Of a stretch of 64,000 nt of DNA, positions 19,226 to 46,440 are shown piece by piece. The position numbers were made by a program, and so were the translations under genes. The stretch is from an uncultured Pseudomonadota bacterium (GTDB lineage Bacteria > Pseudomonadota > Alphaproteobacteria > RUG11792). Positions within the stretch are counted from its first letter, which is position 1, and every line of letters begins with the position of its first letter. The DNA lies in the NCBI GenBank assembly GCA_902795615.1, contig CADBLQ010000013.1, positions 279 to 64,278 of the forward strand, written 5' to 3'. The notes beneath the pieces were generated by a model. The model did not search any database. It was not told the origin of the DNA and worked only from the letters and a program-made list of their open reading frames with translations.

Positions 19226-19396
19226 TTACTTTCCTAATAGCAACATAACAACTAGTATTGTACCACACAACAGTTTTATGTATCTGCTAGACGCCTCGAA
19301 AAAATGGAAACAATTCAACCGGAGTGTATTGTTCGGTATTAAATACAAATTCTATGTTACACTGTCCTTTGGAAAAACGTGAATTAATAAGTGTTT

Positions 19397-20905
19397 ATGT
19401 CGAACAATAAGTATATTTTTATTACTACCCCTATATATTATGTAAATGCCAAACCTCACATAGGACATGCGTACACAACTGTTGTTTGTGATGTATATGC
19501 TAGATTTTGTCACATGATGGGTTACAACGTAAAGTTCTCTACTGGAACGGATGAACATGGCAAAAAAGTTGAACAGAGTGCAAAGAAAAATAATCGAACT
19601 CCGCAACAGTTTGCAGATGAGGTATCAGCTTTATTTAAAAATTTGTTGCCTATATTAAATATTACTAATGACGATTTTATTCGCACAACTGAATTTCGTC
19701 ATAAAAAGACGGTAGAACATTTCTGGAAAAAACTATACGATGCTGGTTATATATATTTGGGTGAGTATAAGGGGTGGTACGATATACAAAATGAAGCATA
19801 TTTTACAGAAAAAGAATTAGTTGACGGCAAATCTCCTTTAGGTGGAAATGTTGTATACATGGAAGAACCGTGTTATTTCTTTAAGTTATCTGCTTTTGGT
19901 GATAGATTACTTGCGTATTATGAAGAACATCCTGACTTTATATTTCCAGCATCTCGTAGAAACGAAATGATAAGCTTTATAAGACAGGGCTTAACTGATT
20001 TAGCAATTTCTAGAACAACGTTTTCATGGGGTATTCCTGTTCCTAATGACCCCAAACATGTAGTGTATGTTTGGTTGGATGCATTAACTAATTATTTGAC
20101 TGTTAATGGATATCCAACAAATGAAAATCAAAATGAAGATCCATATTGGCAGAATGTAATTCACTTTGTCGGTAAAGAGATAGTACGCTTTCACGCGATA
20201 TATTGGGTAGCATTTTTAATGGCAGTAGGTATTAATCCTCCTCAGAAAATTGTGTCTCACGGATGGTGGCTAAGTGAGGGGCAGAAAATGTCAAAGTCAT
20301 TAGGAAATGTTCAAAATCCGTATGATTATTGTGCAGAATTCGGTTCAGATGCATTAAGGTATTACTTACTACGAGAACTTACTTTTGGTTCAGATGGCAA
20401 CTTTTCAAGAGAAAGTTTTATAAATAGATACAATTCGATATTGGCAAATAGCTATGGCAACCTCTGTAATCGTGTGCTATCATTTATTCAAAAGTATTGT
20501 AATGGCACAATAGAACGCCCAGTTGAGATAACAGACGAAGATGAAAAGTTTTATCAAGCAATAGATGCAAATATAAATGTTTGCCCTGATTTAATACATA
20601 AATTTTCATTTAATAAATATCTTGAAAAAATGGAAAATGCTATAACATTATCTAATCAATACATAGACTTTCAGAAACCATGGACTTTCAAAACCTCAGA
20701 TAAAAATCGTATGAACACCATACTGTACGTTTGTCTGGAAAATATATACAAAATTGCAATAATGCTGTCCCCCGTAATACCGTCTACTGCAGAAAAATTG
20801 ATGAAAATCCTAAAACTAAAACCAACTTTCACATTTGATGGTAACAATAGATTGCCAAATACTGTCGAATTAAATGAATTAGAAATCTTGTTCCCCAAAC
20901 ATTAG
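19397..20905 (+). CDS. metG: methionine--tRNA ligase (short form, no C-terminal tRNA-binding extension)
   Basis: HIGH motif (PHIGHAYT) and KMSKS motif (QKMSKSLGN). The ATG at 19397 gives MSNNKYIFITTPIYYVN. Confidence 0.95.
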   Translation: MSNNKYIFITTPIYYVNAKPHIGHAYTTVVCDVYARFCHMMGYNVKFSTGTDEHGKKVEQSAKKNNRTPQQFADEVSALFKNLLPILNITNDDFIRTTEFRHKKTVEHFWKKLYDAGYIYLGEYKGWYDIQNEAYFTEKELVDGKSPLGGNVVYMEEPCYFFKLSAFGDRLLAYYEEHPDFIFPASRRNEMISFIRQGLTDLAISRTTFSWGIPVPNDPKHVVYVWLDALTNYLTVNGYPTNENQNEDPYWQNVIHFVGKEIVRFHAIYWVAFLMAVGINPPQKIVSHGWWLSEGQKMSKSLGNVQNPYDYCAEFGSDALRYYLLRELTFGSDGNFSRESFINRYNSILANSYGNLCNRVLSFIQKYCNGTIERPVEITDEDEKFYQAIDANINVCPDLIHKFSFNKYLEKMENAITLSNQYIDFQKPWTFKTSDKNRMNTILYVCLENIYKIAIMLSPVIPSTAEKLMKILKLKPTFTFDGNNRLPNTVELNELEILFPKH

Positions 20906-21176
20906 TAAATTTTATTTAACTATATTATGTGTTTGAATTATGGCAAGCCACAAAAGTGGAACACCTTATTTAAAATTAAAATTCGTAACAAACTTTGGAT
21001 AATGTAGGGATATATTCTAACTTTTTGACGCTACAAACTTTAGATTACAGAAACAGAGTTGTGTTTTAGATGAGAAGACTTACGGAAAAAGTTTTAATTT
21101 TCTTAAAATTTTGATTGTTTCTTTGCAAGAATGTTGAATAATAATGTTGCAAAGATTTACTAAAAAAGGAAATTAT

Positions 21177-23087
21177 ATGAACAAGTCAAAAATGTTTCTG
21201 ATGATGCTGACTATGGTAACCGTCCCAAGTGTACAAGCATCAGGAACAAATACGTTACTACTTCCGTTAAATCAAAATATGAGGCAATACCAGCAATTTA
21301 TGCCTTCACATCCGAACAATGCGAATCTTAAGGAATTTAATTCCTTTGCGGATCTAGATGGACATGATATGTTCTCAACAACCATAACTGGCATTTTTCA
21401 GGGAGAGAATATGGCTAATGCAGATAATAATTACCTAGGAGGAGGCAAAATCTATGACGAAGCACTAGACAAAGCAGTTGAAAACCAGTTTTTGGGGAAG
21501 AAAACGTCAGGCACTCAATACGGCCTCGAACAAGCGAATAACAATCTCAATGATGAATTTGAAGAAGAATCACAATATTCCGCTGATCATCTATTTATAC
21601 AAAAACAATCCAGAAATCGTGTGTCGTACGAAAAACAAGGTCTCGCTCTTAACGAAGATGACGAGAACGTAGTAGATGTAAATGACGCTCTAATAAACGA
21701 GAGTCCAAAAACAAACTTAAATATCGACAAGAAACGCATTTGGGACATTTGTAAAGTCCGTCAAAAATACCCAAAAACAAACTTAAATATCATCGGTAAT
21801 CGCATTGGTAAATTCAAACACAAAAAAGCATGGAAGCCTAAAATGACTTATGCTTTCTCCAAAAGTGACCTTGAATTGGAAGAAAATCAAATACAAGACC
21901 TAGAAAGCAAGATAGAATTTGAAAGTGTTAATTTGCCAATTGATGGATGTTTTTGGAAAAATCGTAATACTCAAATCATCAAAGAATTAGAAAACGGTGG
22001 TTTGTTAGAGTTTATAAGTAAAGTTGTAAACCAACTTAAACGTAATCAACAGGTTACTTTGTCTCATAGAGATCTGCATTATGTTGAAATTTCCACTTTA
22101 TATTCAGGCGGATACCATAATCCTCAAGTTATTACTACTAAGAAAACTTATAACACTAAAGAATCAGTGGCTAACGATCAATTAAGGAATCCACCTGAAT
22201 ACTATAAACTACGAAAAGAATGTCAGAAATTCGGTGGGATAAGAAAGTTCGGAGAAGACGTCCCTAAAGAAAAACTCAAGTATTTTGCTGATACTATTGA
22301 GTCTTTTCATAGGGATAGTCCAGCTCGTCGAGCTGGAGATATTTTTAGAAAAAAGATCCTCGAAAACCCCCTGATTGACTACAACCTTTCAAACCGACTA
22401 GATTATTTGACTACGTCGCTAAAATCAATAGCAAGATTGGTATCATTACATTACGAGATCTCACAGCCTACAACGTTTTTCCGGATAAATATCGCTTGGT
22501 TGAAAAAACTTGTCGGAATAAAAAAATCCAAAAGGCGATTCACTAGAGATACCTTTTATTTGAAGAAAGTTATAAAAAACTGGAAGATAGTAAAATCCAA
22601 AATGCAATTTGATGATGAGGATAAACAAAACCTTAAGTATAAGGTGTTCAAAATACATTGGGGGAATAATCACGATGCAGTCAGCCTATATATAAAAGAA
22701 TTAGTTAAGAAAATTATTGATGTCACGTGCGAGGGGTTTATTTCCAAACTAAATGACAGTTTAAGAGAATGCTTTACTGACCTTTTTTCTACAAATTTGC
22801 GTAGCAAAGACCTCGCATCAGCTAACTCAAATATAGAAACATTAGCTAATACTATAACAAACGCATTTTCTTTTGCGTGGAAATTAGAATCATTGAACGT
22901 CATACCCGCCTGTCTTGAATATACATCGGTTTTAGATTCAAAAAAGACAGGGCCAGTACAGAATCTTGGAGATTTTTTTAAACGTAGATTACAACCTGCA
23001 ATCGAAGCCACTCTGAAAGCACTTGTTACTGAATATAAAAATAAGATAAATCAAGAACAGCAGAAAGACTTAGTGACCGACAAATAG
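21177..23087 (+). CDS. hypothetical secreted protein, paralog A of a lineage-specific family
   Basis: An AAGGA RBS lies 7 nt upstream of the ATG at 21177. Signal peptide MNKSKMFLMMLTMVTVPSVQASG. It is colinear with the next gene over about 450 aa (NRIGKFKHK, GGLLEFI, VTLSHRDLHYVEISTLYSGGY, IARLVSLHYEISQPTTF, FKIHWGNN, LGDFFKRRLQPAIEA). Confidence 0.7.
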   Translation: MNKSKMFLMMLTMVTVPSVQASGTNTLLLPLNQNMRQYQQFMPSHPNNANLKEFNSFADLDGHDMFSTTITGIFQGENMANADNNYLGGGKIYDEALDKAVENQFLGKKTSGTQYGLEQANNNLNDEFEEESQYSADHLFIQKQSRNRVSYEKQGLALNEDDENVVDVNDALINESPKTNLNIDKKRIWDICKVRQKYPKTNLNIIGNRIGKFKHKKAWKPKMTYAFSKSDLELEENQIQDLESKIEFESVNLPIDGCFWKNRNTQIIKELENGGLLEFISKVVNQLKRNQQVTLSHRDLHYVEISTLYSGGYHNPQVITTKKTYNTKESVANDQLRNPPEYYKLRKECQKFGGIRKFGEDVPKEKLKYFADTIESFHRDSPARRAGDIFRKKILENPLIDYNLSNRLDYLTTSLKSIARLVSLHYEISQPTTFFRINIAWLKKLVGIKKSKRRFTRDTFYLKKVIKNWKIVKSKMQFDDEDKQNLKYKVFKIHWGNNHDAVSLYIKELVKKIIDVTCEGFISKLNDSLRECFTDLFSTNLRSKDLASANSNIETLANTITNAFSFAWKLESLNVIPACLEYTSVLDSKKTGPVQNLGDFFKRRLQPAIEATLKALVTEYKNKINQEQQKDLVTDK

Positions 23088-23157
23088 CAGAAAGTATATA
23101 TATATTTACTGTCATAACGCCAGTAGATATCATAAATGAGACAATCTGCATGCAATC

Positions 23158-23177
23158 TCGGGGAATTTCTTCCCCGA
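23158..23177. repeat. GC-rich perfect hairpin 3' of paralog A
   Basis: TCGGGGAA-TTTC-TTCCCCGA, followed by CATTATATT. It belongs to the same motif family as the three hairpins at 24997..25070. Confidence 0.7.
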
Positions 23178-23436
23178 CATTATATTCTCCTAAAATAATT
23201 ATTTGTTTGTAGCTTTGACGTTGCATACGAAAGACTAATTATCAGATTGGGACAAATTCTGAACAAGGAGAAGAGCGATTATAATTTTTATGCGTCAGCA
23301 TGCAATTATATGTAGCTTAATAACAAATTATTTGTTTGAAACAAAAGAAAATTATCAATTTTTTAAATTTTGCTGGAATCGGATAACAGAATTTGCCATC
23401 ATGATGGCGTCAAAGGTTAAAGAACAGGGAAAAAAT

Positions 23437-24945
23437 ATGGTCAGAACAGGAAAAACACTTTTAACGATGTTAGCAATTTTTACAGTACAGAACGCAGAGG
23501 TAAATAGCATGCAAGATTTAATACCTAACAATCTTCTGTACAAAAACAAGAAGATCTGGCTTTCTGAAAACAGTGCGTTTCAGAGAAATGCTCCTCAAAA
23601 TGATAATGGAAACTCAGGAGTTCATAACTTGATTAATCTAACTGAAGAAAAACCAAAATTCGTAGTACACATGCAACAACCGGGGAAAAAACAATACGAA
23701 AATGCGTGGTATTTTGAAAACAAAGAACTTGTCACTGATAAGAATGATGAAAATCTACCAAAAAATTCGAAAAAGGTTAGTAATAGAATTGGTCGGTTTA
23801 AAAGTAAACATATAAAGATATATGGGTACAAATTTATTCTGAAGAAAAAATTTTCTAAGGAAATATGCGAAGCTCTAAAAAATAGCGATATTGGTGAAAA
23901 AAATGTTAAAATTCCAACTGGTGGACTTTTTTTGAAAAACACAAAACTGTGGAACGATAAAATAAGAAAATTAGAAAGAGCGGGACTAATAGAGTATTTG
24001 GAAAAAACCAAAGCCAAAATTACAGAAAATAAGAATATTACACTATCGCGAAAAGATATATTTCATCTTTTTACTTCTGTTTTATATACAGGAGAATATC
24101 CCCCTGCACGTACCAGAAGCGACACTAAAGATAAAAAAAAATGTGCGTTACGAAAAAAACGTGGTAATTTAAAAATAAGAAAATCCGATGGTTCTGTCGA
24201 TTTAAGGTTAATTGAAGATACTATTGCCTCTTTTTCCCAGTTTAGGGGGCATTTTTCAGACCTAATTGTGTCTGCAAACACTTTTCCACCAGATCAACTG
24301 CTTAGGGCAAATGCGAAAAGCGTATTAAATACGCTGACAGAGATAGCAAGATTAGCTGTATTATGTGAAGAAATATATCAAGAAACAACGTTTTCTCGTG
24401 AGACAATAATGTGGCACAAAAAAAAACATAATAGAAGGATACGGGGAATTAAGGATTCGAAATTTGAGGTGAAAAATACGTATTTAATATTTAAAGTAAA
24501 GTGGAATGAAAAAACCAATTATATAAGAAAAGCTATAAAAGAATTACTTGAAAAGGCAATTGACGAAAGTTGTAATACGTTTGTGAATAAGTTTCAAGAA
24601 GTGTTAACAACTTACTCAACAGAACTCATGAACAAAAATATAAATAACAAAAATGATAAATCAGAACTTTCTGAAGATGAAACAATTTTTTTAAATTCGT
24701 TGGATAAAATAAAAGAAAAATTTCAGGAAGCATGTACTAAAGGGGATTTAAAAAAAATATCTGTGAATATGACATTGCCGGCAAATAATGTAAATCCAAA
24801 CCCTATAGAAATTACTAGTCTTGCTGAATTATTTAAAAAGAAACTGAAACCTTTAATAGATGCATCTATGGATCAAATTGCTTCTAGTTATAAAAAAGAA
24901 TTAATTTCAGACAAGCAAACTGAAAATACTCAAAAATCTGAATAG
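23437..24945 (+). CDS. hypothetical secreted protein, paralog B of the same family
   Basis: An AGGGA RBS precedes the ATG at 23437. Signal peptide MVRTGKTLLTMLAIFTVQNAEV. Matching blocks are NRIGRFKSK, AGLIEYL, ITLSRKDIFHLFTSVLYTGEY, IARLAVLCEEIYQETTF, FKVKWNEK and LAELFKKKLKPLIDA. Confidence 0.7.
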   Translation: MVRTGKTLLTMLAIFTVQNAEVNSMQDLIPNNLLYKNKKIWLSENSAFQRNAPQNDNGNSGVHNLINLTEEKPKFVVHMQQPGKKQYENAWYFENKELVTDKNDENLPKNSKKVSNRIGRFKSKHIKIYGYKFILKKKFSKEICEALKNSDIGEKNVKIPTGGLFLKNTKLWNDKIRKLERAGLIEYLEKTKAKITENKNITLSRKDIFHLFTSVLYTGEYPPARTRSDTKDKKKCALRKKRGNLKIRKSDGSVDLRLIEDTIASFSQFRGHFSDLIVSANTFPPDQLLRANAKSVLNTLTEIARLAVLCEEIYQETTFSRETIMWHKKKHNRRIRGIKDSKFEVKNTYLIFKVKWNEKTNYIRKAIKELLEKAIDESCNTFVNKFQEVLTTYSTELMNKNINNKNDKSELSEDETIFLNSLDKIKEKFQEACTKGDLKKISVNMTLPANNVNPNPIEITSLAELFKKKLKPLIDASMDQIASSYKKELISDKQTENTQKSE

Positions 24946-24996: not shown

Positions 24997-25070
24997 TCGA
25001 GGACTTGTCCTCTGATATTTTGGGGACTTTCTCCCCCGATATTTTTGGGGGACTTCTCCCCCCGATGTTC
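24997..25070. repeat. array of three tandem GC-rich hairpin units 3' of paralog B
   Basis: The three units are GAGGAC-TT-GTCCTC (tgatattt), GGGGA-CTTTC-TCCCC (cgatattttt) and GGGGGA-CTTC-TCCCCC (cgatgttc). The period is about 24 bp. Each stem is followed by GAT(A/G)TT. Confidence 0.75.
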
Positions 25071-25093: not shown

Positions 25094-25966
25094 TTACTTA
25101 TCTGATGTTTTTGTCATTACATAAGTTCCCAAGATTATCAATCCTGCACTTATAAAGGAATATAATTGAGGTACTTGCCCAAAAAACCAGAACCCAAATA
25201 AGGTGGCGATGGGAAATTCTATATAACGTATTACACTCATATTTGATGCTGTTGTAGCTCTATATGCTAAAAAAATAAATAATTGTATTACGTTTGCTCC
25301 AATTCCTAATAAAAGTATTAACCAGAGTTCTCGTGCTGTAGGTGCTACCCAAACAGAGGGTACAAATATACCTGAAAGTATTGTTGTATATAGCCCAAAA
25401 TAAAACAACATCGTAATTGTATGTTCTCTATTATCGATCATCTTTTTTATTATAATGTCCATTGTTGCGAATAGAAATGCCGCAAGTGTAGGAATGCATG
25501 CTACTGCATTAATGTTTGATGCCTGTGGTCGAAACATTATTAGTAATCCACTGAACCCAATTAAGTTCGCAATAAGGATTTTCCACGATATATTTTCTTT
25601 TAGAAATATACAGCTTAATGGTAATATAAATAATGCCTCACTAAATAAAATAGTAGTGTTTTCAGCTAATGGCATTACTTTAACACTATAACAGCATAAT
25701 CCTAATGCTACAGTACCTATTACACCTCGCAATATATGTAATTTATGTAGTGGCGTTTTTAGATATTTATTACCAGTTATGAATACTGGTACTGCTACCA
25801 CTATAAATGAAAAAAAGAAACGAAAAAATGCAATTTCAATTACAGATAATCGTTGACCTAAAAGTTTCATTAAAACATCGTTATAAGAACTTGTAATGTA
25901 TAGTAATGTTCCCCAAAATATTCCTTGTTGAGAACCTTTACCTAAGAACCAATTAATAATTTTCAT
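25094..25966 (-). CDS. DMT-superfamily (EamA-like) transporter
   Basis: 290 aa with about 10 predicted TM helices in two EamA-like halves (IAFFRFFFSFIVV..., GLLIMFRPQ). The substrate cannot be told from the sequence. Rickettsial SAM transporters belong to this family. Confidence 0.75.
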   Translation of the reverse strand: MKIINWFLGKGSQQGIFWGTLLYITSSYNDVLMKLLGQRLSVIEIAFFRFFFSFIVVAVPVFITGNKYLKTPLHKLHILRGVIGTVALGLCCYSVKVMPLAENTTILFSEALFILPLSCIFLKENISWKILIANLIGFSGLLIMFRPQASNINAVACIPTLAAFLFATMDIIIKKMIDNREHTITMLFYFGLYTTILSGIFVPSVWVAPTARELWLILLLGIGANVIQLFIFLAYRATTASNMSVIRYIEFPIATLFGFWFFGQVPQLYSFISAGLIILGTYVMTKTSDK

Positions 25967-26095: not shown

Positions 26096-29000
26096 TTAGA
26101 ATTTCCAATTGAGGTTAAATTGCCCACCAAAACCAGTTCTGCCAAGATGACGGAACGTTGCTTGAATTGTCGCAGTAAGGTTTTTTGTCGAGACAAAGTT
26201 TAGACCCAATCCATACTGCATGTAACCTTTTTTCTTCATTTTTAATTTTGGTAATTCAACATTTCCAGCTTTACCAGTACCACTTCTATCTAGATTAAGT
26301 ACATATTTTGCAGAAATACAGATACTCGTTTGTTTTCCAGAGAATATTAAATCTATACCAGGCAATATGCTAATACCATTTAGCTTTTCAGAAACCATGT
26401 CCATACTTCCATATGTAGTTTTCCATTTTCCTCCATTGATATAGTTGTATGTCGCCGACACGTTCGGTTGAATAATTACATTCTGAGAGACATTGATGTT
26501 GTAACCAGCTCTCAATGAACCGCCAAATAATCCATGGTTAATTTTTTCTTTTTCTCCATTGCTATCCTTGTTATTGTTATCTTCACTATTGTTATTACTT
26601 TCAGTTTCTCCCATTTTGGGCAAAGTTATTTTATTTCGATAGTATCCTCCGTACACCATTGCTCCTAGCGTGAAATTGCAATTTGAGAAGGCTCCTGCAA
26701 ATCCTAATTCGCCACCATCCTGGCGAGATTTGAATTTGTGTTCAGTGTCTTTAATTTCATACTTTTGATGAGACCCCAGATATCCGGCAAATATGCTAGG
26801 AGTAAAATTCCAGCAATTAGATAATAGTTTAGTACCAAAGTCAATTCCGAATAATGCACCATAAGAGGTATTTTTTATATCAGGTAGTTCGCTTGTATTT
26901 TCATTATTGTTATTATTATTATTTGTATTTTCGTTATTTTTACTACTATCCCCGGTATTTAGATGCAAATTTTCATGACCACCAAATAATTTAACCCATA
27001 CACTATTGTTCTTATTAGGATTTTTTCCTTTAATGTAATCCGATGATTTAGCTTGGTTATTAGCCAGAATGTGTCCAAAAACACCATCATTCAATGATGC
27101 CTGATTTTGATTTAACGCTGTCATTCCAATTTGATCTCTAAATACACCAGGATTGAATTTTGTTAATTCTAGATTATAAATTCCATTACCAGCCGGTTTT
27201 AAAGCGTAATAACCAATAGCTGTTAATTTTTCAGTGCCACTAGATGTAAACGTAATACAATTTGAGCTTGCAACATTAAATATTTTCATAGGTATACTTT
27301 CATCTATTGGAGCATCGTCACCAAATAGGTTTCCATTTAATGCAAAATCTTTAATATTTACTGTGGCACTATTTCCATTTGTTGGCTCCATAACTGTAGT
27401 GCCATCACTCTTTCCGAATTTGTCATAGTTAGCATTTTCCTTGCTTCTACCATAGACATCGATGGAAAAATCAGCTTGAGTTACGTCATCTTTACCTATT
27501 TGAATTTTATTTGATAGCCCGTGTTCTTCATATAAACCATTAATTGAATTAATTTCCCCACTAAACGTTGAAAGTTCTTTAGATATTTCACTATCTCCAA
27601 ATATAACCTTACCGCCGTTTTCAAGTGTTGGGTCACCAAATAAACACGATGAATCATCAAAAGTTGCAGTACAACTTGTAATTATGAGTTGCCCACCATA
27701 TTGTTTATAGTACGGCAATGTGACGCTAGAATTTCCAAGGGTAGGAGTTGCACCAAAATGCATATCAACTTTGATTTGAACTATTCCAGCGTATTGGTAA
27801 ATATCTCCTTTAAGCCTATTTTTATCTTGCTCTTCAATTATTAATTTTCCTCCGTTTACATCTTTTGCTATTTCTTCTTTAAAACTGCCAGTGATTTCTT
27901 CATGATTACCATTTACAATTTTTATTGCACAACCAGCAGGTAGGTCTATATCACCAATTTGCCCACTAGTAAAATAAATAGTTGCGGGGTTTCCGTTACT
28001 GCCAATAGTAACTAACCCTTTTATTTGTTGTTCGTTAACTGATAATATACCACCGTTTTTTTCAAGTTTTATATTACTATTAATAGGTTCATTTTGCTCT
28101 GTAAGTATACAATTACTATTCTCTTTATTAAAAATAAGTTCATCTTTTTCATTGTCTAAAAGTTTTTTTTGAACCAAATTTCCTAATGTAGATGTATTTG
28201 CTTCGCCATTTTTTAGCTTTGTATCTACTGTTCCCATTTTTTTTTCACCTGTAACAGGGTCTTTATCAGGAACAACTCCTGCACTAGTTGGATTTTTTAA
28301 TTTTACGTTTCCAGCACTTTTTATTTCTCCTTTATGACCTTCTCCCTCAACCAATATATTTACTTTTTCCCCAATGATTGTGGTCTTTGTACCTATCTTA
28401 TGGTCATCATCACATTTTATTTTTCCTTCAGCACCTCTTGTATTAAGTTTGTTATTATTCTCTTCCTTCCCTTCTTCCTGCTCTTCATTTTCTCCCATGT
28501 TATTTTGCACGTTTGTGTCAATTAATTCATCATCAATGTATTGGTAATCATCATTATTTTCGTCTTCCTCTGGGTTAGAATTTTCTTCTTCTTCTTCGCC
28601 ACCTTCTTCCAATTTTGATTTATTTGATAGTAGGTTTTTTTTAACTCCTGCCTCTTCACTTTCATTTGGAATTAATACTTTACTGAGGTCACCAACAAGA
28701 GTTAACGTACCATTCTTTAGATTAATAGTTCCTTTAAGACTATTGTTTTCATTATCGAGGTTAATTGCTACTTCACTCTCATTACCTTTGATGTCTAATT
28801 TTGCATTTTCCTTTAGGTTTAACGTTGCTGTTTTTTCAATTGTTGCGTTATCAACTAGAACAATTTTATTTTCATTTGTTCCATCACCAATAACTATATT
28901 GCCTTTTTCGACTTTACTGTCTTTATTTAGAGTGAATGTCGTTGCTTTAGGAGCAGATGGGTCGTCTTTCAACTTTTTATTTGTTTTTTTAAGCAAAGCC

Positions 29001-30868
29001 TTATTTTTGACACCGTCACCACTTGGTGTGGTCTGTGCCTTACTAATTCCTTCTACGATAAGTTCAAATTCCCCATTATCCTTATTAGGAACAAGCAATG
29101 TAGCATCATTATCATCTCCATTTGATATTGTTACTTGCGTATTTCCAGCAGCGACTTCTTTCGGTGCAATTGTTTTGCCAACAGATTTAGCTGCATTAAG
29201 ACGACGAACAGGTGCTGTTAACATAGTAAGAGTATTAACTTTAAGACTGAGTTGTTTATCTTGTGCTGTAGTTTTTAACAAATTTGGTGTTACTTCTTCT
29301 TCTACATCAATTGCGTCATGCACTAGGCTGGCACCTGTTATTTTGCTACCAGAATTGAGGGTTAGGATTGAATCTGTTAAATATGTAGTTCCACCATCTT
29401 GGTTATAAGTGCGCGTATCATCTGTTTCAATTAATATACTTCTTCCTATAAACCGCCCTCCGCTAACTTGCATTGCACTTTCAATACTATCTTCACTTTC
29501 CTTACCAGAATTTGGATCAACGACATCATTTAGGTGGAAAGTACCATTGTTTATGGTTATTGGAGCATTAATTTTTGATGTACAATCACCAGCAACAAAA
29601 TCTTTTTCATTATTCATCACAAATCCAGGTTCGCCTTCATTTTCACTTTCCATAACATTAAGACCGCCCTTTGTTACTGTTACATAGTTATTTTCATTAG
29701 TTGCAAAACCGTGCGAAATCAATTCACCTCCCGTAACTGAAATTTCACCGGTAACAGTGTCACTACTACCTAATACAACAGAAGAGCCTTCTCCAAAGGT
29801 AACGCCTTCTTTAGCGATTATTTTTACATCTTTTGAAATTTTGTCTTCTTCATTCAGCACTACGTGATTATCGAAAATTAATGTACCACCTGTTGCTATT
29901 AATTCTCCTCCTTTATTAGAGACTAATTTACCATTCTCATCAGTTCTTGATCCTTGTGCTTCAGAAGCACTTTCATCAACAATGTTCCGTAGTGTTAATT
30001 CTCCTCCCTTTAGATAGATATCACCAACCCAATTTACTTTATCTAACTTTTCACCTCCATCAAGAACAACCTTACCACTATTAATTTCCAATATACCGCC
30101 TGTCCAACTGTCTTCAATTGGCTTACCATCAGCACCCTTTTCAAGATATTGATCGTTTAATAAGTTAAATGTCGCACCATTTTCTCCCGCATTGAGATTT
30201 GCTGCTCGCTCAGGAGGTAACTCAGTAGGGTCAACTAGCGTACCATCAGATTTTTTATCGCAGTCAACTACTAATTTTCCATTTGTGTTGTTTGATTGTT
30301 CCTCATCATCAGTATAACCAACATTAACTGTTCCAGTGTTAATGTAGTTGCCTTGTTTTAATGTTAGCGTTGCATCATCCAATATGTTTATAGTTGCTTC
30401 CGATGCATTTAAGTCTCCAGTACTTTGTTGATTAAAACTTCTAATTTTTCCGCCTGCATAATAATAATCAGCGTAATTATTGACGCGACCTACAAATCCT
30501 GCATATTGCTCTACTGATCCAGACAGATTTTCAAGACTGGCAACATTCTCAACTTCATTATCATCAACTTTAACTGTCTGAGTGTTTTCATCAAGTACTA
30601 CACTACTGTTTATTGGCTTCTTATCAATTAACTCCGTTTGAGAACCATTAATAAGTGCTGTTCCCTGTCCGCCGTCTCCACCACCAAGCCTAGCGTTGCC
30701 AGTTAGACTTACCGCACCATAATTTCTTTTTATGACTGAGTTTGAGAAATCTTGTGACAAGTTTAAAGTAGCCCCTATATCTATATTAAATATATGTGTT
30801 GCCATTACACCCGGTGATGTAGTTGCCATCATGCAAATTACTGATGTAAGTAAAAAACGTTGTTTCAT
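26096..30868 (-). CDS. large autotransporter (type Va) surface protein
   Basis: Signal peptide MKQRFLLTSVICMMATTSPGVMA. The roughly 1250-aa passenger has recurring GG-x-[LIV] motifs. The C-terminal beta-barrel has alternating hydrophobic strands and ends ...GFGGQFNLNWKF, with the terminal Phe typical of outer-membrane proteins. Confidence 0.85.
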   Translation of the reverse strand: MKQRFLLTSVICMMATTSPGVMATHIFNIDIGATLNLSQDFSNSVIKRNYGAVSLTGNARLGGGDGGQGTALINGSQTELIDKKPINSSVVLDENTQTVKVDDNEVENVASLENLSGSVEQYAGFVGRVNNYADYYYAGGKIRSFNQQSTGDLNASEATINILDDATLTLKQGNYINTGTVNVGYTDDEEQSNNTNGKLVVDCDKKSDGTLVDPTELPPERAANLNAGENGATFNLLNDQYLEKGADGKPIEDSWTGGILEINSGKVVLDGGEKLDKVNWVGDIYLKGGELTLRNIVDESASEAQGSRTDENGKLVSNKGGELIATGGTLIFDNHVVLNEEDKISKDVKIIAKEGVTFGEGSSVVLGSSDTVTGEISVTGGELISHGFATNENNYVTVTKGGLNVMESENEGEPGFVMNNEKDFVAGDCTSKINAPITINNGTFHLNDVVDPNSGKESEDSIESAMQVSGGRFIGRSILIETDDTRTYNQDGGTTYLTDSILTLNSGSKITGASLVHDAIDVEEEVTPNLLKTTAQDKQLSLKVNTLTMLTAPVRRLNAAKSVGKTIAPKEVAAGNTQVTISNGDDNDATLLVPNKDNGEFELIVEGISKAQTTPSGDGVKNKALLKKTNKKLKDDPSAPKATTFTLNKDSKVEKGNIVIGDGTNENKIVLVDNATIEKTATLNLKENAKLDIKGNESEVAINLDNENNSLKGTINLKNGTLTLVGDLSKVLIPNESEEAGVKKNLLSNKSKLEEGGEEEEENSNPEEDENNDDYQYIDDELIDTNVQNNMGENEEQEEGKEENNNKLNTRGAEGKIKCDDDHKIGTKTTIIGEKVNILVEGEGHKGEIKSAGNVKLKNPTSAGVVPDKDPVTGEKKMGTVDTKLKNGEANTSTLGNLVQKKLLDNEKDELIFNKENSNCILTEQNEPINSNIKLEKNGGILSVNEQQIKGLVTIGSNGNPATIYFTSGQIGDIDLPAGCAIKIVNGNHEEITGSFKEEIAKDVNGGKLIIEEQDKNRLKGDIYQYAGIVQIKVDMHFGATPTLGNSSVTLPYYKQYGGQLIITSCTATFDDSSCLFGDPTLENGGKVIFGDSEISKELSTFSGEINSINGLYEEHGLSNKIQIGKDDVTQADFSIDVYGRSKENANYDKFGKSDGTTVMEPTNGNSATVNIKDFALNGNLFGDDAPIDESIPMKIFNVASSNCITFTSSGTEKLTAIGYYALKPAGNGIYNLELTKFNPGVFRDQIGMTALNQNQASLNDGVFGHILANNQAKSSDYIKGKNPNKNNSVWVKLFGGHENLHLNTGDSSKNNENTNNNNNNNENTSELPDIKNTSYGALFGIDFGTKLLSNCWNFTPSIFAGYLGSHQKYEIKDTEHKFKSRQDGGELGFAGAFSNCNFTLGAMVYGGYYRNKITLPKMGETESNNNSEDNNNKDSNGEKEKINHGLFGGSLRAGYNINVSQNVIIQPNVSATYNYINGGKWKTTYGSMDMVSEKLNGISILPGIDLIFSGKQTSICISAKYVLNLDRSGTGKAGNVELPKLKMKKKGYMQYGLGLNFVSTKNLTATIQATFRHLGRTGFGGQFNLNWKF

Positions 30869-41165: not shown

Positions 41166-41248
41166 TAATCCAGGGTAATCGTCATTGCCTTGTATTCGCA
41201 TGAACAATTATGTTGAAATGAATATGATAGTTGCTGTACAGTTGGGCA

Positions 41249-42028
41249 ATGGATTTTATTTCAGACGATAATAATTCAGGAAATTTCTGGTTAGAGATTA
41301 AAAAGCTGGTAAAAAGTTTAATTAAAACGTTTATAGGACTGTTTCTTTTGTTCAGTCTTTTGTATCAGCCATTTAAAATACCATCTGAATCAATGGTTCC
41401 CACTTTACTAATTGGTGATTTCCTATTAGTTGATAAATATTGCTATGGATATACTAATGACTCATTTCGTATGTGGAATAAAACATTACCATTGCCAAAA
41501 TTTACAAAGCGTATTTTCGCTAGTAAAAAACCTACATATGGAGATGTTATAGTATTCCACAATCCCAAAGATGGGCATAAAAATTACATTAAACGCATTA
41601 TTGGTATGCCGGGCGATAAAGTTCAGTTAAAGGATGGTGTTGTATTCATAAATGATAAAAAATGCGAAATAACTGATGAAGATACTTATTCCTTAATGAG
41701 TAAAGGAGAATACAGAATATTTAAAAAATATACAGAAACCTTACCAAATGGATATAAACACGTAATAATAAAATACTTTCCTTTTGGTAAAGGGCATCTT
41801 GATAACGTAGGTCCATATAATATTCCTAAGGGGCATTATTTCGTTATGGGCGATAATCGGGATAATTCCTCTGATAGTAGAGTTATGGAGACATGTGGCT
41901 TTATCCCAGATGAACGAGTCATGGGGCAGGCAAAATGTCTATTTTTCTCATCAAGTTGTAATTGGTATCAAGTCTTCGATTGGTTATTTTCAATAAGATA
42001 TGAACGTATATTTACCAAAATAAGATAG
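41249..42028 (+). CDS. lepB: signal peptidase I
   Basis: Catalytic Ser box PSESMVPTL, Lys box YIKRIIGMPGD, and GDNRDNSSDSR. Confidence 0.9.
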   Translation: MDFISDDNNSGNFWLEIKKLVKSLIKTFIGLFLLFSLLYQPFKIPSESMVPTLLIGDFLLVDKYCYGYTNDSFRMWNKTLPLPKFTKRIFASKKPTYGDVIVFHNPKDGHKNYIKRIIGMPGDKVQLKDGVVFINDKKCEITDEDTYSLMSKGEYRIFKKYTETLPNGYKHVIIKYFPFGKGHLDNVGPYNIPKGHYFVMGDNRDNSSDSRVMETCGFIPDERVMGQAKCLFFSSSCNWYQVFDWLFSIRYERIFTKIR

Positions 42029-42757: not shown

Positions 42758-43873
42758 ATGCCATTTTATAAATGTAAAGTTATTAGCTCGACATATGAAA
42801 TCTATAAAAAGGTGCTATATGCACGATCGGAAAATGAACTTCTGCAAAGAAACCAGGATATTATTAACTATAGACAGTACAATCCCAAAATAAATTTTCG
42901 AGAATTTTCACTACAGTTATTTAGAATAATGCAGCGTTTAACAGCTAATAGTTATAATACTGTTCAGGCTCTAACAGTTGCCGAAAATTGCTTTAGTGGT
43001 GTACAAAAATCAATAATCCAAACTATTTTATATGATATACGGCACGGAACTACATTTTCAGAAGCTTTAAAGCAGTTCTCACAGTGTTTTGACTTAACAA
43101 TTATTGAAATTTTAAGAGTATCGGAACTAACAGGTAGATTAACAGAATCAATTGAAAATATAATTAAATATATTGAATATAATAATCAATTTAATACTAA
43201 AATTAAAAATGCAACACGTTATCCAATTTTTGTTTTAATATTAATCTTCGTTATTTCAGTTATTTGGATTGTATGGATTATTCCGCAATTTGGACAGATT
43301 TTTACGGATTTAGAATTACCTACTCCTACAATAACAAGTTGGATGTTAAGCCTGGGTAGTGCTATAAGAAAGCATTATGTGATAGCAATGACTGTTACCC
43401 CGATAATTTTTGTTGCGTATAGACACCTGCATTTTAAAATACCTATAATTTCAAAATTTACTGATGAAATTAATAAATTACAGTTTTTTGATACAATGGC
43501 GTTAATGTTGCGTGAAAAAATTCATTTAATAGATGCAATAAAATGTGTTACAAGACGTAAAGAATTTGAAAAATACTCAGAATTAGTAGAATTAATTATT
43601 CATGGATATAGTTTTTCATATGCAGCGGAAAAACTAGAGATTTTTTCAAATGAAGAAATTGCTATTATGTCCGTTAGTGAACAAACTGGACAATACTGGG
43701 TTGCGTTTAACACATTTGCTGATATGATGAAACTGCGTATAGATAACAACTTAAACTTAATAACTAAGCGACTACCATCTATACTTATATGTGTAGTTGG
43801 TATAATACTAGTTATATTTATATACGGCACATTTATGCCATTATATTCCAGTATCGACCTTGTAACTAATTAG
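42758..43873 (+). CDS. type II secretion / type IV pilus platform protein (GspF/PilC family)
   Basis: Two T2SS-F repeats: FSLQLFRIMQRLTANSYNTVQAL...I..GTTFSEAL...SELTGRL...YPIFVLILIFV...IIPQF..IF..LELPTPT, and a second repeat ending MPLYSSID. 371 aa. Confidence 0.7.
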   Translation: MPFYKCKVISSTYEIYKKVLYARSENELLQRNQDIINYRQYNPKINFREFSLQLFRIMQRLTANSYNTVQALTVAENCFSGVQKSIIQTILYDIRHGTTFSEALKQFSQCFDLTIIEILRVSELTGRLTESIENIIKYIEYNNQFNTKIKNATRYPIFVLILIFVISVIWIVWIIPQFGQIFTDLELPTPTITSWMLSLGSAIRKHYVIAMTVTPIIFVAYRHLHFKIPIISKFTDEINKLQFFDTMALMLREKIHLIDAIKCVTRRKEFEKYSELVELIIHGYSFSYAAEKLEIFSNEEIAIMSVSEQTGQYWVAFNTFADMMKLRIDNNLNLITKRLPSILICVVGIILVIFIYGTFMPLYSSIDLVTN

Positions 43874-43959: not shown

Positions 43960-46440
43960 ATGAAAAAAATTCTATTATTAGCTTCAGTGCTTAGTTTGGC
44001 AACGGTAGTCATTCCACAGTTTGGTTTCGTTAGTGAGTTACATGCGTCAAGTAGTAATCGATCAGAACAATTTGATTTTTATACTGTAGATAAAAAACGT
44101 TTTAAAGTGTGTTGTGATACAATACAATCCAATATTGACGCCTATGCAAAAATTTTGCCGGAAAATATAAAGCAAAGTTATTGGGCAACTTCAAATGAAT
44201 GGTCATCATCAATTGATAATCTGAAAATTCTAGCATATTGGGGACACAACTCAAATCAAGAAAAACACAATCAGATTGTCCAGTGCTTTGCTAAACAACA
44301 AGTGTCGGAATTCCAGGCAAGTAATGGGATTAAAACTGCCTCTTTGTTAGCACAACGAAATGGTCTAGGTGTGTATGAAGCTTTATATTTAATTAATCAC
44401 AATGAAAACATCAAAGCTAAATATGAAGAAGTTTTAGATAAATTTTATGATCTAGACACCTACTTTGAGGATAAAAAGAAAGACGCAGTTTGGGATTTTA
44501 AAAAGTTACAACGGGATTTTACTACGGAACTATTCACCATGGTAATAAATAATATTGCTAAAGCTTACAGAAATGTTAAGTCCACACTTAGTTCTCAAAC
44601 TCTGTCGGAAATCTACTTTAAAAATATGAAATGCCTATTACACGACCTTAACATTTACTTGAATCAATTCGGAATATTGACTGGTGTTGTTGTACCTAAA
44701 CAAAAAACCGTAACATCTCCAAAAAAGAAGTCAGCATGTGAAGAATTAGGTACTGAGTATGAATATATTGACTCCGCTGTTGACACTATTTCTGAAAAAA
44801 GTAAACAATTCGATGCAGACCCCACAAACACCGACACGCTGATTAATCGTGATAATTTTATATCAGAATTGTCGGATAAATTACACGAAGAATATCCCGG
44901 GGATACGAAAGAGGGAACTAGGGATTATATTGACGAAAAACTACGAAGAATTGGAGAATTAAACAAAAACCCGGTGTGTCTGTCTGGCTTTCATTGGAAA
45001 TCAGATGTGGAAAAACTAAAGGATTTCTGTTTCAGTACCCTCCCTGGTATGATTGAAAAACTTTCCGAAGGGCGAAAAATTTCTCGAACTTCGGATGTGA
45101 TTAGCGATTTTGGGTACGTCTTGAGCGATAGTAACAGTTTTCCTTTTGATAGTAGTAGTACAGTGCTGTATGAAACCCTCCTAAAACTAGACTTAGTTGC
45201 ATGCTACCTTAAAGATCAGGTTACCTCTTTAGTTCAAAGGTTTGATGATGACGAAACACGAGAAAGTAAGGCTGAACAGATGATAAAAGAATTTGGCTTT
45301 ATAAATAAAGAATTTTCCCCAGACAAGCGCTCTTTCAAAGATGTTGACGAATTTATTAAGAGGAAGCGGAAAGAAATAAATCAGCAATTAGAACCCGCTA
45401 AAACGACGAAAAAACGTCAAGACCAGATTGAAAGGGCATGCTTGAAAATTGCTAAATATTTGAATATAGAACCCAATAAGAGACTTACCGAGTGTTTTAA
45501 AAAAGTTGGTTGTATATTTGCTGGCAAACCTTTAACTGAAATAAAAACCGACATGGATTTTGAAAATCGGGTTGTCTGTAGTGCCAAGTTTCTAACCTCT
45601 GAGCTACCAATGCTAATAGATGAAAACAATAAAAGTGGGTATATAACGATTGACACAGCACTTTCGATACTTGAGAACGCTAAATTAGATGAATTTAATT
45701 CAGCAGAGAAGTTATTTAACGAGTTATCAGATCAACTTAAGGTCACGGGCATAATGCAATATAGAATTAAAAAATTGGAAGAACTTGCAAACGTGAAAAT
45801 AAAATCAGAAGAAACTCGCATAAAACTGCACGGTTACTTATGTCGAAATTATGTAAAGAACGGTAGCAACCTTGACACTTATAAAACTATCGATACATTT
45901 TTTGAACAACATAAAAATGATATAACATTAATTAATTACATAAAGTCAATCAAACCAGCGGATGAATTCACATATTTAACTGGATTGATGCTGTCAAAAG
46001 CAGAAAATGAAACGGGGAGACAGGTCACCAGAAGTGGTATTTGTCACGACTGTGTAAAGGCTTATTTAGAGCTCGAACATAAAGTTTTTGACTATAAAAA
46101 AGTATCCGTAGATAATCCACAGTTTGACGAAATGTGGCAGGATGCTAACGAATTCTTTTTAAAAACGTTGCCTCTTTATAGAATAGAGGCTAAAGATAGA
46201 ATAGAGGCTGAAGATAAGGGTATGTTGTCCAGTAATCAGTCCATTCCGGGCATTTATGAACGACTTCTACATTCATTTTATCTAGAATGTGTTGATTTTT
46301 TTATCTACAGTTCTGAAAAACTAAGTGTTGCCAATCCAAAAAATTTAACAGAACTAATGGATAGAGTCGTCAATCGAGTAGCTAAGGATGCTAGAGATTT
46401 TGATTCTTTTAGACGGCGACTAACAATGAAAGCTCAGTAA
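43960..46440 (+). CDS. large hypothetical secreted protein
   Basis: 826-aa ORF with signal peptide MKKILLLASVLSLATVVIPQFG. It is mostly helical and charged, with no domain I recognise. An 18-bp unit occurs twice in tandem at 46183..46218 (RIEAKD/RIEAED). Confidence 0.6.
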   Translation: MKKILLLASVLSLATVVIPQFGFVSELHASSSNRSEQFDFYTVDKKRFKVCCDTIQSNIDAYAKILPENIKQSYWATSNEWSSSIDNLKILAYWGHNSNQEKHNQIVQCFAKQQVSEFQASNGIKTASLLAQRNGLGVYEALYLINHNENIKAKYEEVLDKFYDLDTYFEDKKKDAVWDFKKLQRDFTTELFTMVINNIAKAYRNVKSTLSSQTLSEIYFKNMKCLLHDLNIYLNQFGILTGVVVPKQKTVTSPKKKSACEELGTEYEYIDSAVDTISEKSKQFDADPTNTDTLINRDNFISELSDKLHEEYPGDTKEGTRDYIDEKLRRIGELNKNPVCLSGFHWKSDVEKLKDFCFSTLPGMIEKLSEGRKISRTSDVISDFGYVLSDSNSFPFDSSSTVLYETLLKLDLVACYLKDQVTSLVQRFDDDETRESKAEQMIKEFGFINKEFSPDKRSFKDVDEFIKRKRKEINQQLEPAKTTKKRQDQIERACLKIAKYLNIEPNKRLTECFKKVGCIFAGKPLTEIKTDMDFENRVVCSAKFLTSELPMLIDENNKSGYITIDTALSILENAKLDEFNSAEKLFNELSDQLKVTGIMQYRIKKLEELANVKIKSEETRIKLHGYLCRNYVKNGSNLDTYKTIDTFFEQHKNDITLINYIKSIKPADEFTYLTGLMLSKAENETGRQVTRSGICHDCVKAYLELEHKVFDYKKVSVDNPQFDEMWQDANEFFLKTLPLYRIEAKDRIEAEDKGMLSSNQSIPGIYERLLHSFYLECVDFFIYSSEKLSVANPKNLTELMDRVVNRVAKDARDFDSFRRRLTMKAQ

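What the first reader, a model, noticed from the sequence alone, without database searches (positions are those of the whole stretch)
21177..24945. Tandem pair of lineage-specific secreted paralogs with no recognisable domains
The two adjacent genes are 647/636 aa (paralog A, by ORF-track or called start) and 551/502 aa (paralog B). Both encode proteins with classical Sec signal peptides. They are colinear over about 450 aa:
- NRIG[KR]FK;
- GGLLEFI / AGLIEYL;
- [VI]TLS[HR][RK]D..H...S.LY[ST]G.Y;
- IARL..L..EI.Q.TTF;
- FK[IV].W;
- L.[DE].FK..L.P.I[ED]A.

Their N-terminal regions are highly diverged. Paralog A also contains an internal diverged 66-bp duplication, with the 21-bp direct repeat ccaaaaacaaacttaaatatc at 21705 and 21771. 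Both genes are followed by the same type of GC-rich hairpin. Duplication and divergence of secreted proteins in an intracellular bacterium is the typical signature of host-interaction or surface-variation genes. I cannot assign them to any known family.
Basis: partly seen in the sequence, partly recalled or inferred. Interest (0 to 1): 0.6.

Follow-up and report, generated by a model that had tools for sequence, protein, structure and literature searches.

The report
Species-only pair of exported orphan proteins
Two neighbouring genes in an uncultured rumen bacterium that appears to live inside a eukaryotic cell encode related exported proteins with no detectable relative anywhere else, so they are plausible but unproven host-contact proteins and their function remains unknown.

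Summary
Genes A (21177-23087, 636 aa) and B (23437-24945, 502 aa) are true paralogs (BLASTP E 6e-28, 28% identity over 450 aa). Their N-terminal signal-peptide-like segments can themselves be aligned. The 66-bp internal duplication in A and the related GC-rich hairpins after both genes are also real.

No search found a family. This covers Pfam, NCBIfam, PHROGs, PADLOC, PDB sequences, a word-indexed search of 5.8 billion clusters, an exhaustive HMMER profile search of 1.84 billion representatives, six-frame searches of the 40 other genomes of the same family, and two collection scans. Two AlphaFold models were poor (pLDDT 37 and 47), and Foldseek gave nothing.

The pair is restricted to one species, a 0.76-Mb rumen MAG related to Holosporales. 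It is intact in a second strain. Between the strains it differs four times more than eight flanking genes (p = 3e-7), yet pN/pS is 0.43, below 1 (p = 0.015). That indicates fast evolution under purifying selection, not demonstrated positive selection.

The genomic context supports an intracellular lifestyle and a Sec-first export route. The genome has an ATP/ADP translocase, nine USP-type deubiquitinase domains in five proteins that all begin with signal-peptide-like segments, LepB, a GspF-like protein, a secretin and a T6SS sheath.

The result is ordinary in kind (orphan exported proteins of an endosymbiont) and new only as a protein family.

The parts
21177..23087 (+). Paralog A coding sequence (636 aa plus stop). 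The mature protein is about 71 kDa, pI 9.1, hydrophilic and mostly helical. The ORF is open from 21144, but 21177 is the likelier start (AGGA about 8 nt upstream; the signal peptide must be N-terminal).
21177..21239 (+). Signal-peptide-like segment of A: MNKSKMFLMMLTMVTVPSVQA, with predicted cleavage after VQA.
   Evidence: Inspection. It aligns with the signal segment of B (LTM...VQ(N)A).
21705..21836 (+). In-frame tandem duplication of 2 x 66 bp (22 aa each). It duplicates the start of the first conserved block (PKTNLNI..RI); B has a single copy.
21762..23084 (+). Conserved core of A (residues 196-636), colinear with B residues 104-502.
23158..23177 (+). GC-rich hairpin TCGGGGAATTTCTTCCCCGA followed by a T-rich tail, 70 nt after the stop of A. 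It is terminator-like.
23437..24945 (+). Paralog B coding sequence (502 aa plus stop). The mature protein is about 56 kDa, pI 9.6, with 14.7% Lys. The ORF is open from 23290.
23437..23496 (+). Signal-peptide-like segment of B: MVRTGKTLLTMLAIFTVQNA. The cleavage site is less clear than in A.
   Evidence: Inspection.
24999..25064 (+). Array of three tandem hairpin units of about 24 bp, lying between the 3' ends of B and the convergent EamA gene. One unit is missing in a second strain.

Best explanation
A and B are genuine protein-coding genes made by an old tandem duplication and found in a single species of a rumen, Holosporales-related, obligately host-associated bacterium.

Each product most likely enters the Sec pathway through a cleavable N-terminal signal peptide, which the LepB encoded in the same window would remove. 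This would yield a soluble, basic, lysine-rich, largely alpha-helical protein of about 71 kDa (A) or 56 kDa (B). Each has a disordered, non-conserved N-terminal stretch and a conserved core of about 440 residues.

From the periplasm the proteins most likely reach the cell surface or the surroundings (the host cell interior), possibly through the secretin / GspF-type machine the genome encodes. There they would act as host-contact factors of unknown biochemical activity.

What is shown and what is inferred:
- Shown: paralogy, restriction to one species, intactness in two strains, purifying selection on average, faster evolution than neighbouring genes, presence of the export machinery genes, and an intracellular-type gene set.
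- Inferred: signal-peptide cleavage.
- Inferred by analogy only: passage across the outer membrane and a host target.

The confidence of 0.5 is for the whole chain including host contact. That these are real, Sec-exported, species-restricted paralogs I hold at about 0.8.
For: - Paralogy: E 6e-28.
- The N-terminal signal-like segments are shared and alignable, and there is no other hydrophobic segment.
- LepB lies at 41231-42028 and a T2SS-F protein at 42758-43873 in the window. A secretin lies on contig 4.
- There are only two copies in the own genome. None was found in the 40 other genomes of the family, including both congeners, searched in six frames with stop codons read through. None was found among 1.84 billion representatives or in the genome and metagenome contig scans.
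- Both genes are intact at the same lengths in a second strain and in further metagenome contigs.
- Between the strains there are 35 substitutions in A+B against 22 in eight flanking genes of 2.5 times the length (odds ratio 4.0, p = 3e-7). pN/pS is 0.43, below the neutral expectation (binomial p = 0.015).
- The genome has an ATP/ADP translocase (E 1e-189).
- It has nine UCH/USP domains in five ORFs, all beginning with signal-peptide-like segments. The substrate of such enzymes exists only in eukaryotes, so the signal-like N-termini suggest that host-directed proteins in this organism use a Sec-first route.
Against:
- The signal peptide was judged by eye. My crude rule-based scan was non-discriminating, flagging 31% of ORFs.
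- The cleavage site of B is atypical.
- Nothing links A or B to the secretin/GspF genes, and a T6SS, which is Sec-independent, is also present.
- No host-directed domain, eukaryote-like motif or fold could be recognised. Model pLDDT was 37 and 47, and the best Foldseek E-values were 0.07 and 0.36.
- pN/pS gives no sign of positive selection.
- Only two full haplotypes were compared.
Confidence: 0.5

Rival explanations
1. A and B are periplasm- or envelope-resident proteins that never leave the bacterium. They would be exported by Sec but serve a species-specific envelope role, for example structural or storage proteins of the periplasm like the abundant periplasmic proteins of infectious-form Holospora.
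For: Sec-type N-termini are the only export signal seen. There is no beta-barrel, autotransporter or lipobox feature. There is no genetic linkage to any secretion machine. The basic, helical and soluble character fits many periplasmic proteins.
Against: A housekeeping envelope role is hard to reconcile with absence from both congeners and from all 40 other genomes of the family, or with four-fold faster divergence than the neighbouring genes. In this genome even the USP-type deubiquitinase proteins, whose substrate exists only in eukaryotes, begin with signal-peptide-like segments. A Sec signal therefore does not imply periplasmic residence here.
Confidence: 0.3
2. A and B are functionless or decaying ORFs, leftovers of a once larger family or of foreign DNA, drifting neutrally.
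For: No homologues and no recognisable fold. Divergence between strains is elevated at both synonymous and non-synonymous sites. Reduced genomes do carry decaying genes; other notes report pseudogene debris elsewhere in this window.
Against: Open frames of 636 and 502 codons in 33% G+C DNA are not expected by chance. Both are intact and of unchanged length in a second strain that differs at 35 positions within them. pN/pS of 0.43 is below neutrality (p = 0.015). About 130 positions are still identical between the two paralogs in colinear blocks despite deep divergence.
Confidence: 0.08
3. The N-terminal hydrophobic segments are not cleaved signal peptides. The proteins are either cytoplasmic or anchored in the inner membrane by an uncleaved signal-anchor.
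For: B has Q at position -3 and a short h-region of 11 residues. No trained predictor was run. Gene callers chose the longer ORFs (647 and 551 aa), which would bury the hydrophobic segment 11 and 49 residues from the N-terminus.
Against: The hydrophobic segments are 11-14 residues long, too short to span a membrane, and no 19-residue window reaches a hydropathy of 1.6. The internal starts have Shine-Dalgarno-like AGGA/GGGA motifs, whereas the upstream ATGs have none. The two segments are homologous and each is preceded by two basic residues.
Confidence: 0.07
4. The pair is cargo of a phage, gene-transfer agent or other mobile element, acquired recently by this species.
For: It is present in one species only. 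Gene order around metG differs from that of the congeners. The GC3 of A (0.318) is about 2 SD above the genome mean of 0.248. Another note reports an orphan GTA-type terminase 6 kb upstream.
Against: There are no significant PHROGs or PADLOC matches; the best is E 0.0014 over 47 residues. No integrase, tRNA or repeat boundary was seen. The GC3 of B (0.239) is typical of the genome. No donor relative exists among about 15 billion proteins.
Confidence: 0.03

Closest known systems
Periplasmic region protein 1 (PRP1, 63 kDa) and the 89-kDa invasion-tip protein of Holospora obtusa
   Same: Both are genus-specific proteins of a Holosporales bacterium that lives inside ciliates. They are of similar size, carry a putative signal peptide, and have sequences described as novel. 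They are stored in the periplasm and then released into, or exposed to, the host (PMC9866348; bioRxiv 10.64898/2026.10.08.757700, abstract).
   Different: No sequence relationship was found: the exhaustive profile search returned only the two window proteins. PRP1 has a Pfam D5_N DNA-binding domain (PMC9866348), whereas A and B have no Pfam domain. Release into a host is demonstrated for PRP1 and unknown here. The host of this bacterium is not identified.
Legionella pneumophila type II secretion substrates without homologues (NttA and similar proteins); cited from my own knowledge, not tested here
   Same: They carry a Sec signal peptide, are exported through a secretin-based type II machine, are restricted to one genus, have no recognisable domains, and matter for growth in protist hosts.
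   Different: Type II dependence is experimentally shown for the Legionella proteins. Here only a GspF-like gene and a secretin gene were found; no GspE or pseudopilins were looked for, and no link to A or B exists. There is no sequence similarity.
The signal-peptide-bearing USP/UCH deubiquitinase proteins of the same genome and of its congener
   Same: They have the same style of N-terminus: a short basic n-region, a 10-15-residue hydrophobic stretch, and in the congener protein a ...VQA|S end as in A. They are large and multi-copy, and the flanking sequence outside the UCH domain has no Pfam hit.
   Different: Those proteins carry a recognisable eukaryote-directed catalytic domain (PF00443, E down to 6e-50). 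A and B carry none, and hhalign and BLAST show no relation.

Membership tests
Sec-dependent (type I signal peptide) exported proteins | A positively charged n-region followed by an uninterrupted hydrophobic h-region of about 7-15 residues at the extreme N-terminus | tested here: met
   A: MNKSK + MFLMMLTMVTVPSV. B: MVRTGK + TLLTMLAIFTV. By inspection only; no trained predictor was available.
Sec-dependent (type I signal peptide) exported proteins | Small residues at -1 and -3 of the cleavage site (Ala-X-Ala rule) | tested here: inconclusive
   A has V-Q-A|S, which fits. B has Q-N-A|E, where Q at -3 is atypical; an alternative V-N-S|M site lies 4 residues later.
Sec-dependent (type I signal peptide) exported proteins | Signal peptidase I present in the organism | tested here: met
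   TIGR02227 E 3.5e-45 and PF10502 E 5.7e-45 at window 41231-42028.
Sec-dependent (type I signal peptide) exported proteins | Demonstrated export and cleavage | not testable with these tools
   Needs PhoA or beta-lactamase fusions, or N-terminal sequencing.
Bacterial lipoproteins | A lipobox with Cys at +1 after the h-region | tested here: not met
   There is no Cys within the first 140 residues of either protein.
Autotransporters / type V secretion | A C-terminal beta-barrel translocator domain (PF03797 or related) | tested here: not met
   No Pfam hit. The C-terminus is predicted helical. The neighbouring 1590-aa gene does have PF03797.
Type IV secretion effectors | A type IV secretion machine in the genome | tested here: not met
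   No VirB4 (PF03135) in the assembly, which is 94% complete.
Type II secretion substrates | A Sec or Tat signal together with a T2SS machine (secretin, GspE/F, pseudopilins) and dependence on it | tested here: inconclusive
   Secretin (PF00263, 91 bits) and T2SS-F (PF00482, E 3.8e-29) are present. GspE and pseudopilins were not searched. Dependence is not testable here.
Holospora PRP1 / 89-kDa periplasmic proteins | Sequence homology; the D5_N domain in PRP1 | tested here: not met
   A profile search of 1.84 billion representatives returned only A and B. There was no Pfam hit.
Any curated protein family (Pfam, NCBIfam, PHROGs, PADLOC) or solved structure | A significant profile or fold match | tested here: not met
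   Best matches: Pfam E 0.079; NCBIfam none; PHROGs E 0.0014 over 47 aa; PADLOC none; PDB sequences E 1.5; Foldseek E 0.07 and 0.36 with TM below 0.2, on low-confidence models.

The most novel reading that the evidence does not exclude
A and B are founding members of a new fold family of host-delivered proteins. They would be exported by Sec and then released through the secretin pathway into a rumen protist, where the conserved basic core binds a host polyanion such as nuclear DNA, as Holospora PRP1 does. The core contains an invariant KK..RR patch at A residues 449-454 and B residues 328-334. The unusually fast divergence between strains would then reflect adaptation to host lineages.
Probability: 0.1. 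Interest if true: 0.6.

Novelty: new member of a known kind. Interest (0 to 1): 0.3.

Why it matters
If the proteins reach the host, they would be species-specific tools of an uncultured bacterium that lives inside a rumen eukaryote, a symbiosis that is only now being catalogued (bioRxiv 10.1101/2025.07.29.667580). They would also be markers for that species in rumen metagenomes.

On present evidence the pair mainly illustrates a general pattern: reduced intracellular genomes keep inventing and duplicating exported orphan proteins. The more informative result is contextual. In this lineage the USP-type deubiquitinase proteins, whose substrate is eukaryotic, begin with signal-peptide-like segments. 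That makes every signal-peptide orphan, including A and B, a legitimate effector candidate.

Tried and rejected
1. Family assignment: every library and search was negative.

2. Structure: AlphaFold2 was run on the full-length A alignment (pLDDT 37.5) and on the conserved core (pLDDT 47.1, pTM 0.43). Only the C-terminal ~140 residues (long helices plus a small sheet) reached pLDDT 70-88. Foldseek against the PDB gave only generic helical hits (E at least 0.07), which I disregard.

3. Positional orthologues: in both congeners metG is followed by an unrelated 499-aa gene and miaA, and the EamA gene sits in a different neighbourhood. A similar-sized tandem pair in the congener (676/536 aa) is unrelated (hhalign probability 0.5%).

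4. Collection scans of genome and metagenome contigs with degenerate patterns found nothing.

5. Positive selection in the N-terminal regions is not supported.

6. Gene conversion as the source of the variable patch in A (FSFAWKLESLNV versus FSSAWELNSLTV): no donor was found in the genome.

7. Shared operator with the autotransporter (TAATGT-N3-ACATT): not found upstream of A or B, and matches were at or below chance.

8. My rule-based signal-peptide scan of all ORFs flagged 31% of them and is useless as a control.

Full report
**What is there**

The + strand carries two long ORFs between metG (19391-20905) and a convergent EamA transporter gene (25094-25966, minus strand). They run 21144-23087 (647 aa) and 23290-24945 (551 aa). 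In both, an internal ATG is the likelier start. It is preceded by an AGGA/GGGA Shine-Dalgarno-like motif and it places a short basic stretch plus a hydrophobic run at the very N-terminus (21177 gives 636 aa; 23437 gives 502 aa).

BLASTP of the two products gives E 6e-28, with 125 of 450 aligned residues identical. The only slip is a one-residue offset of a histidine in one motif.

The N-terminal signal-like segments are themselves alike (MLTMVTVPSVQA versus LLTMLAIFTVQNA). The following 80-175 residues do not align.

The 21-nt exact repeat at 21705 and 21771 extends to 36 nt at 83% identity. It is an in-frame 66-bp tandem duplication of the segment that begins the first conserved block; B has one copy.

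A GC-rich hairpin follows A (23158-23177), and three tandem units of about 24 bp follow B (24999-25064). A scan of the whole assembly for GGGG-N4-10-CCCC hairpins found the GGGG-type units only at this locus. This fits a duplication that copied gene and terminator together.

**Physical character**

The mature proteins would be about 71 and 56 kDa, with pI 9.1 and 9.6 and GRAVY about -0.7. They contain 11-15% Lys and 9% Asn. Neither has a hydrophobic segment beyond the N-terminus or an early cysteine for a lipobox. One cysteine is conserved between them.

The N-terminal third of A is acidic and rich in Asn, Gln and Gly, and every model predicts it to be unstructured.

**No relatives**

The following searches all failed to find a relative:
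- Pfam, best E 0.079.
- NCBIfam.
- PHROGs, best E 0.0014 over 47 residues.
- PADLOC.
- PDB sequences, best E 1.5.
- The word-indexed search of 5.8 billion clusters, which returned only the query itself.
- An exhaustive hmmsearch with the two-sequence core profile against 1.84 billion representatives, which returned exactly the two window proteins.
- Pattern scans of genome and metagenome contigs.
- Six-frame searches that read through stop codons. These found two copies in the own genome and none in the 40 other genomes of the family, including the two congeners.

AlphaFold2 with this two-row alignment gave a mean pLDDT of 37.5 for full-length A and 47.1 (pTM 0.43) for the core. Only the last ~140 residues were moderately confident. 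Foldseek against the PDB gave no hit better than E 0.07 and TM below 0.2. I treat the fold as unknown.

**Organism and context**

The window is contig 13 of a 759-kb, 25-contig assembly estimated 94% complete. The closest MetRS sequences (77-80% identical) come from rumen MAGs labelled 'uncultured proteobacterium RUG...'. The next closest (62-68%) come from MAGs labelled Holosporales and one labelled Alphaproteobacteria.

The genome encodes an ATP/ADP translocase (PF03219, E 1e-189). It has nine UCH/USP deubiquitinase domains in five ORFs. All five ORFs begin with a signal-peptide-like segment. A congener has a 1439-aa protein with a signal-like N-terminus (...ENVQASS) and a UCH domain.

Rumen ciliates are now known to carry such symbionts (bioRxiv 10.1101/2025.07.29.667580), but the host of this lineage is not established.

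Export machinery genes found:
- LepB.
- A T2SS-F protein in the window.
- A lipoprotein-type secretin next to T6SS sheath genes vipA/vipB and an ImpA_N gene on contig 4.
- No VirB4.

Gene order is not conserved. In both congeners metG is followed by an unrelated 499-aa gene and miaA, and EamA has other neighbours.

**Population evidence**

A second assembly (ERZ12289770, 47.5-kb contig) carries the same gene order with both genes intact and of equal length. Three further metagenome contigs carry B unchanged together with part of A.

Against the second strain, the 636-aa A differs at 22 aligned positions (1.15%) and B at 12 (0.8%). metG differs at 2, rpsD at 0, EamA at 5, and 3 kb of the autotransporter at 9.

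By Nei-Gojobori counting the pooled figures are:

| Gene set | Synonymous changes | Non-synonymous changes | pN/pS |
|---|---|---|---|
| A + B | 13 | 22 | 0.43 |
| Eight flanking genes | 11 | 11 | 0.27 |

- The overall rate is 4.0-fold higher in A+B (Fisher p = 3e-7). It is raised at both site classes.
- The N:S ratio does not differ from that of the flanking genes (p = 0.41).
- pN/pS of A+B is below neutral expectation (binomial p = 0.015).

The two intergenic regions next to the genes (620 bp) have no differences at all (P = 0.002 at the coding rate).

Ten of the differences in A cluster in 36 nt and change FSFAWKLESLNV to FSSAWELNSLTV. Only two differences fall in the first 195 codons of A. 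L395R recurs in two independent assemblies.

My reading is that these are functional genes, evolving fast, with local hot spots in the C-terminal half. Positive selection is not demonstrated, and the N-terminal regions are not the variable part within the species.

**Interpretation**

The best-supported account is a species-restricted, tandemly duplicated pair of Sec-exported soluble proteins.

Whether they stay in the periplasm or leave the cell cannot be decided here. I favour an extracellular or host-contact role, at about one in two, for three reasons:
- The pair is dispensable in sister species.
- It evolves faster than its neighbours.
- The proteins in this genome most likely to act on the host, the USP-type deubiquitinases, begin with signal-peptide-like segments.

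The main rival is periplasmic residence, as for the storage proteins of infectious-form Holospora (PMC9866348). Decay, a non-cleaved anchor and mobile-element cargo are each unlikely, for the reasons given under the rival explanations.

**Novelty**

The protein family is new in the sense that nothing alignable exists in about 15 billion predicted proteins. The kind of thing, orphan exported paralogs in an obligate symbiont, is familiar. No function can be attached. I therefore score interest low to moderate.

**Limits**

- No trained signal-peptide predictor was available.
- Structure prediction was starved of sequences.
- The selection analysis rests on two full haplotypes.
- The assemblies are MAGs, so absence in congeners could in principle reflect gaps, although they are 93-97% complete.

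Noticed in passing
own genome outside the window: C15:12430-16527, C12 (879-aa ORF, UCH match at 22659-23732), C17 (1282-aa ORF, UCH matches at 27110-30013), C7:50738-55897, C19:8699-11050: Nine UCH/USP deubiquitinase domains (PF00443, E down to 6e-50) lie in five large ORFs of a 0.76-Mb genome, with up to three domains in one protein. All five ORFs begin with Sec-type signal-peptide-like segments. This is a striking expansion of a eukaryote-directed enzyme combined with an apparently Sec-first export route.
   Followed up: partly
L103:4892-9211 (congener G001, contig 15): A 1439-aa protein has a signal-peptide-like N-terminus (...ENVQASS), a long Asn/Lys-rich repeat region and a C-terminal UCH domain (E 4e-38).
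   Followed up: partly
own genome C4:11112-16388 and C4:22494-23528 (L109): T6SS sheath genes vipA and vipB lie head-to-head with a lipoprotein-type secretin gene (PF00263), and an ImpA_N gene lies 6 kb away. A T6SS in a genome this small is unusual.
   Followed up: partly
own genome C16:5563-7041: An ATP/ADP translocase (TLC, E 1e-189), a hallmark of energy parasitism on a host cell.
   Followed up: no
window 25023-25046: The hairpin array after paralog B varies in copy number between strains. One 24-bp unit is absent in the second strain (L086), while the flanking sequence is identical.
   Followed up: yes
window 26177-26270 (autotransporter gene, 3' part): About 94 bp is missing in metagenome scaffold L087, which shortens the called autotransporter from 1590 to 1552 aa and changes its C-terminal end. 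This is either a strain with a damaged beta-barrel or an assembly artefact.
   Followed up: no
window 21121-21154: A perfect 8-bp inverted repeat, CTTTGCAA-N18-TTGCAAAG, lies 23 nt upstream of the likely start of paralog A and overlaps the upstream in-frame ATG. It could be an operator or an mRNA hairpin.
   Followed up: no
L103:371-2401 and L103:2476-4086 (congener G001): Another tandem pair of orphan paralogs (676 and 536 aa, 31% identical, N-terminal hydrophobic segment, no Pfam hit). It is unrelated to A/B (hhalign probability 0.5%), so tandem orphan pairs recur in this genus.
   Followed up: partly
window 20906-21176 and 23088-23436: Both intergenic regions flanking the paralogs are 100% identical between the two strains, although the adjacent coding sequences differ by 0.8-1.2%. 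Synonymous sites therefore change faster than the neighbouring non-coding DNA, which is unexplained.
   Followed up: partly
window 43960-46440: An 826-aa ORF directly downstream of the T2SS-F gene has no Pfam match.
   Followed up: no
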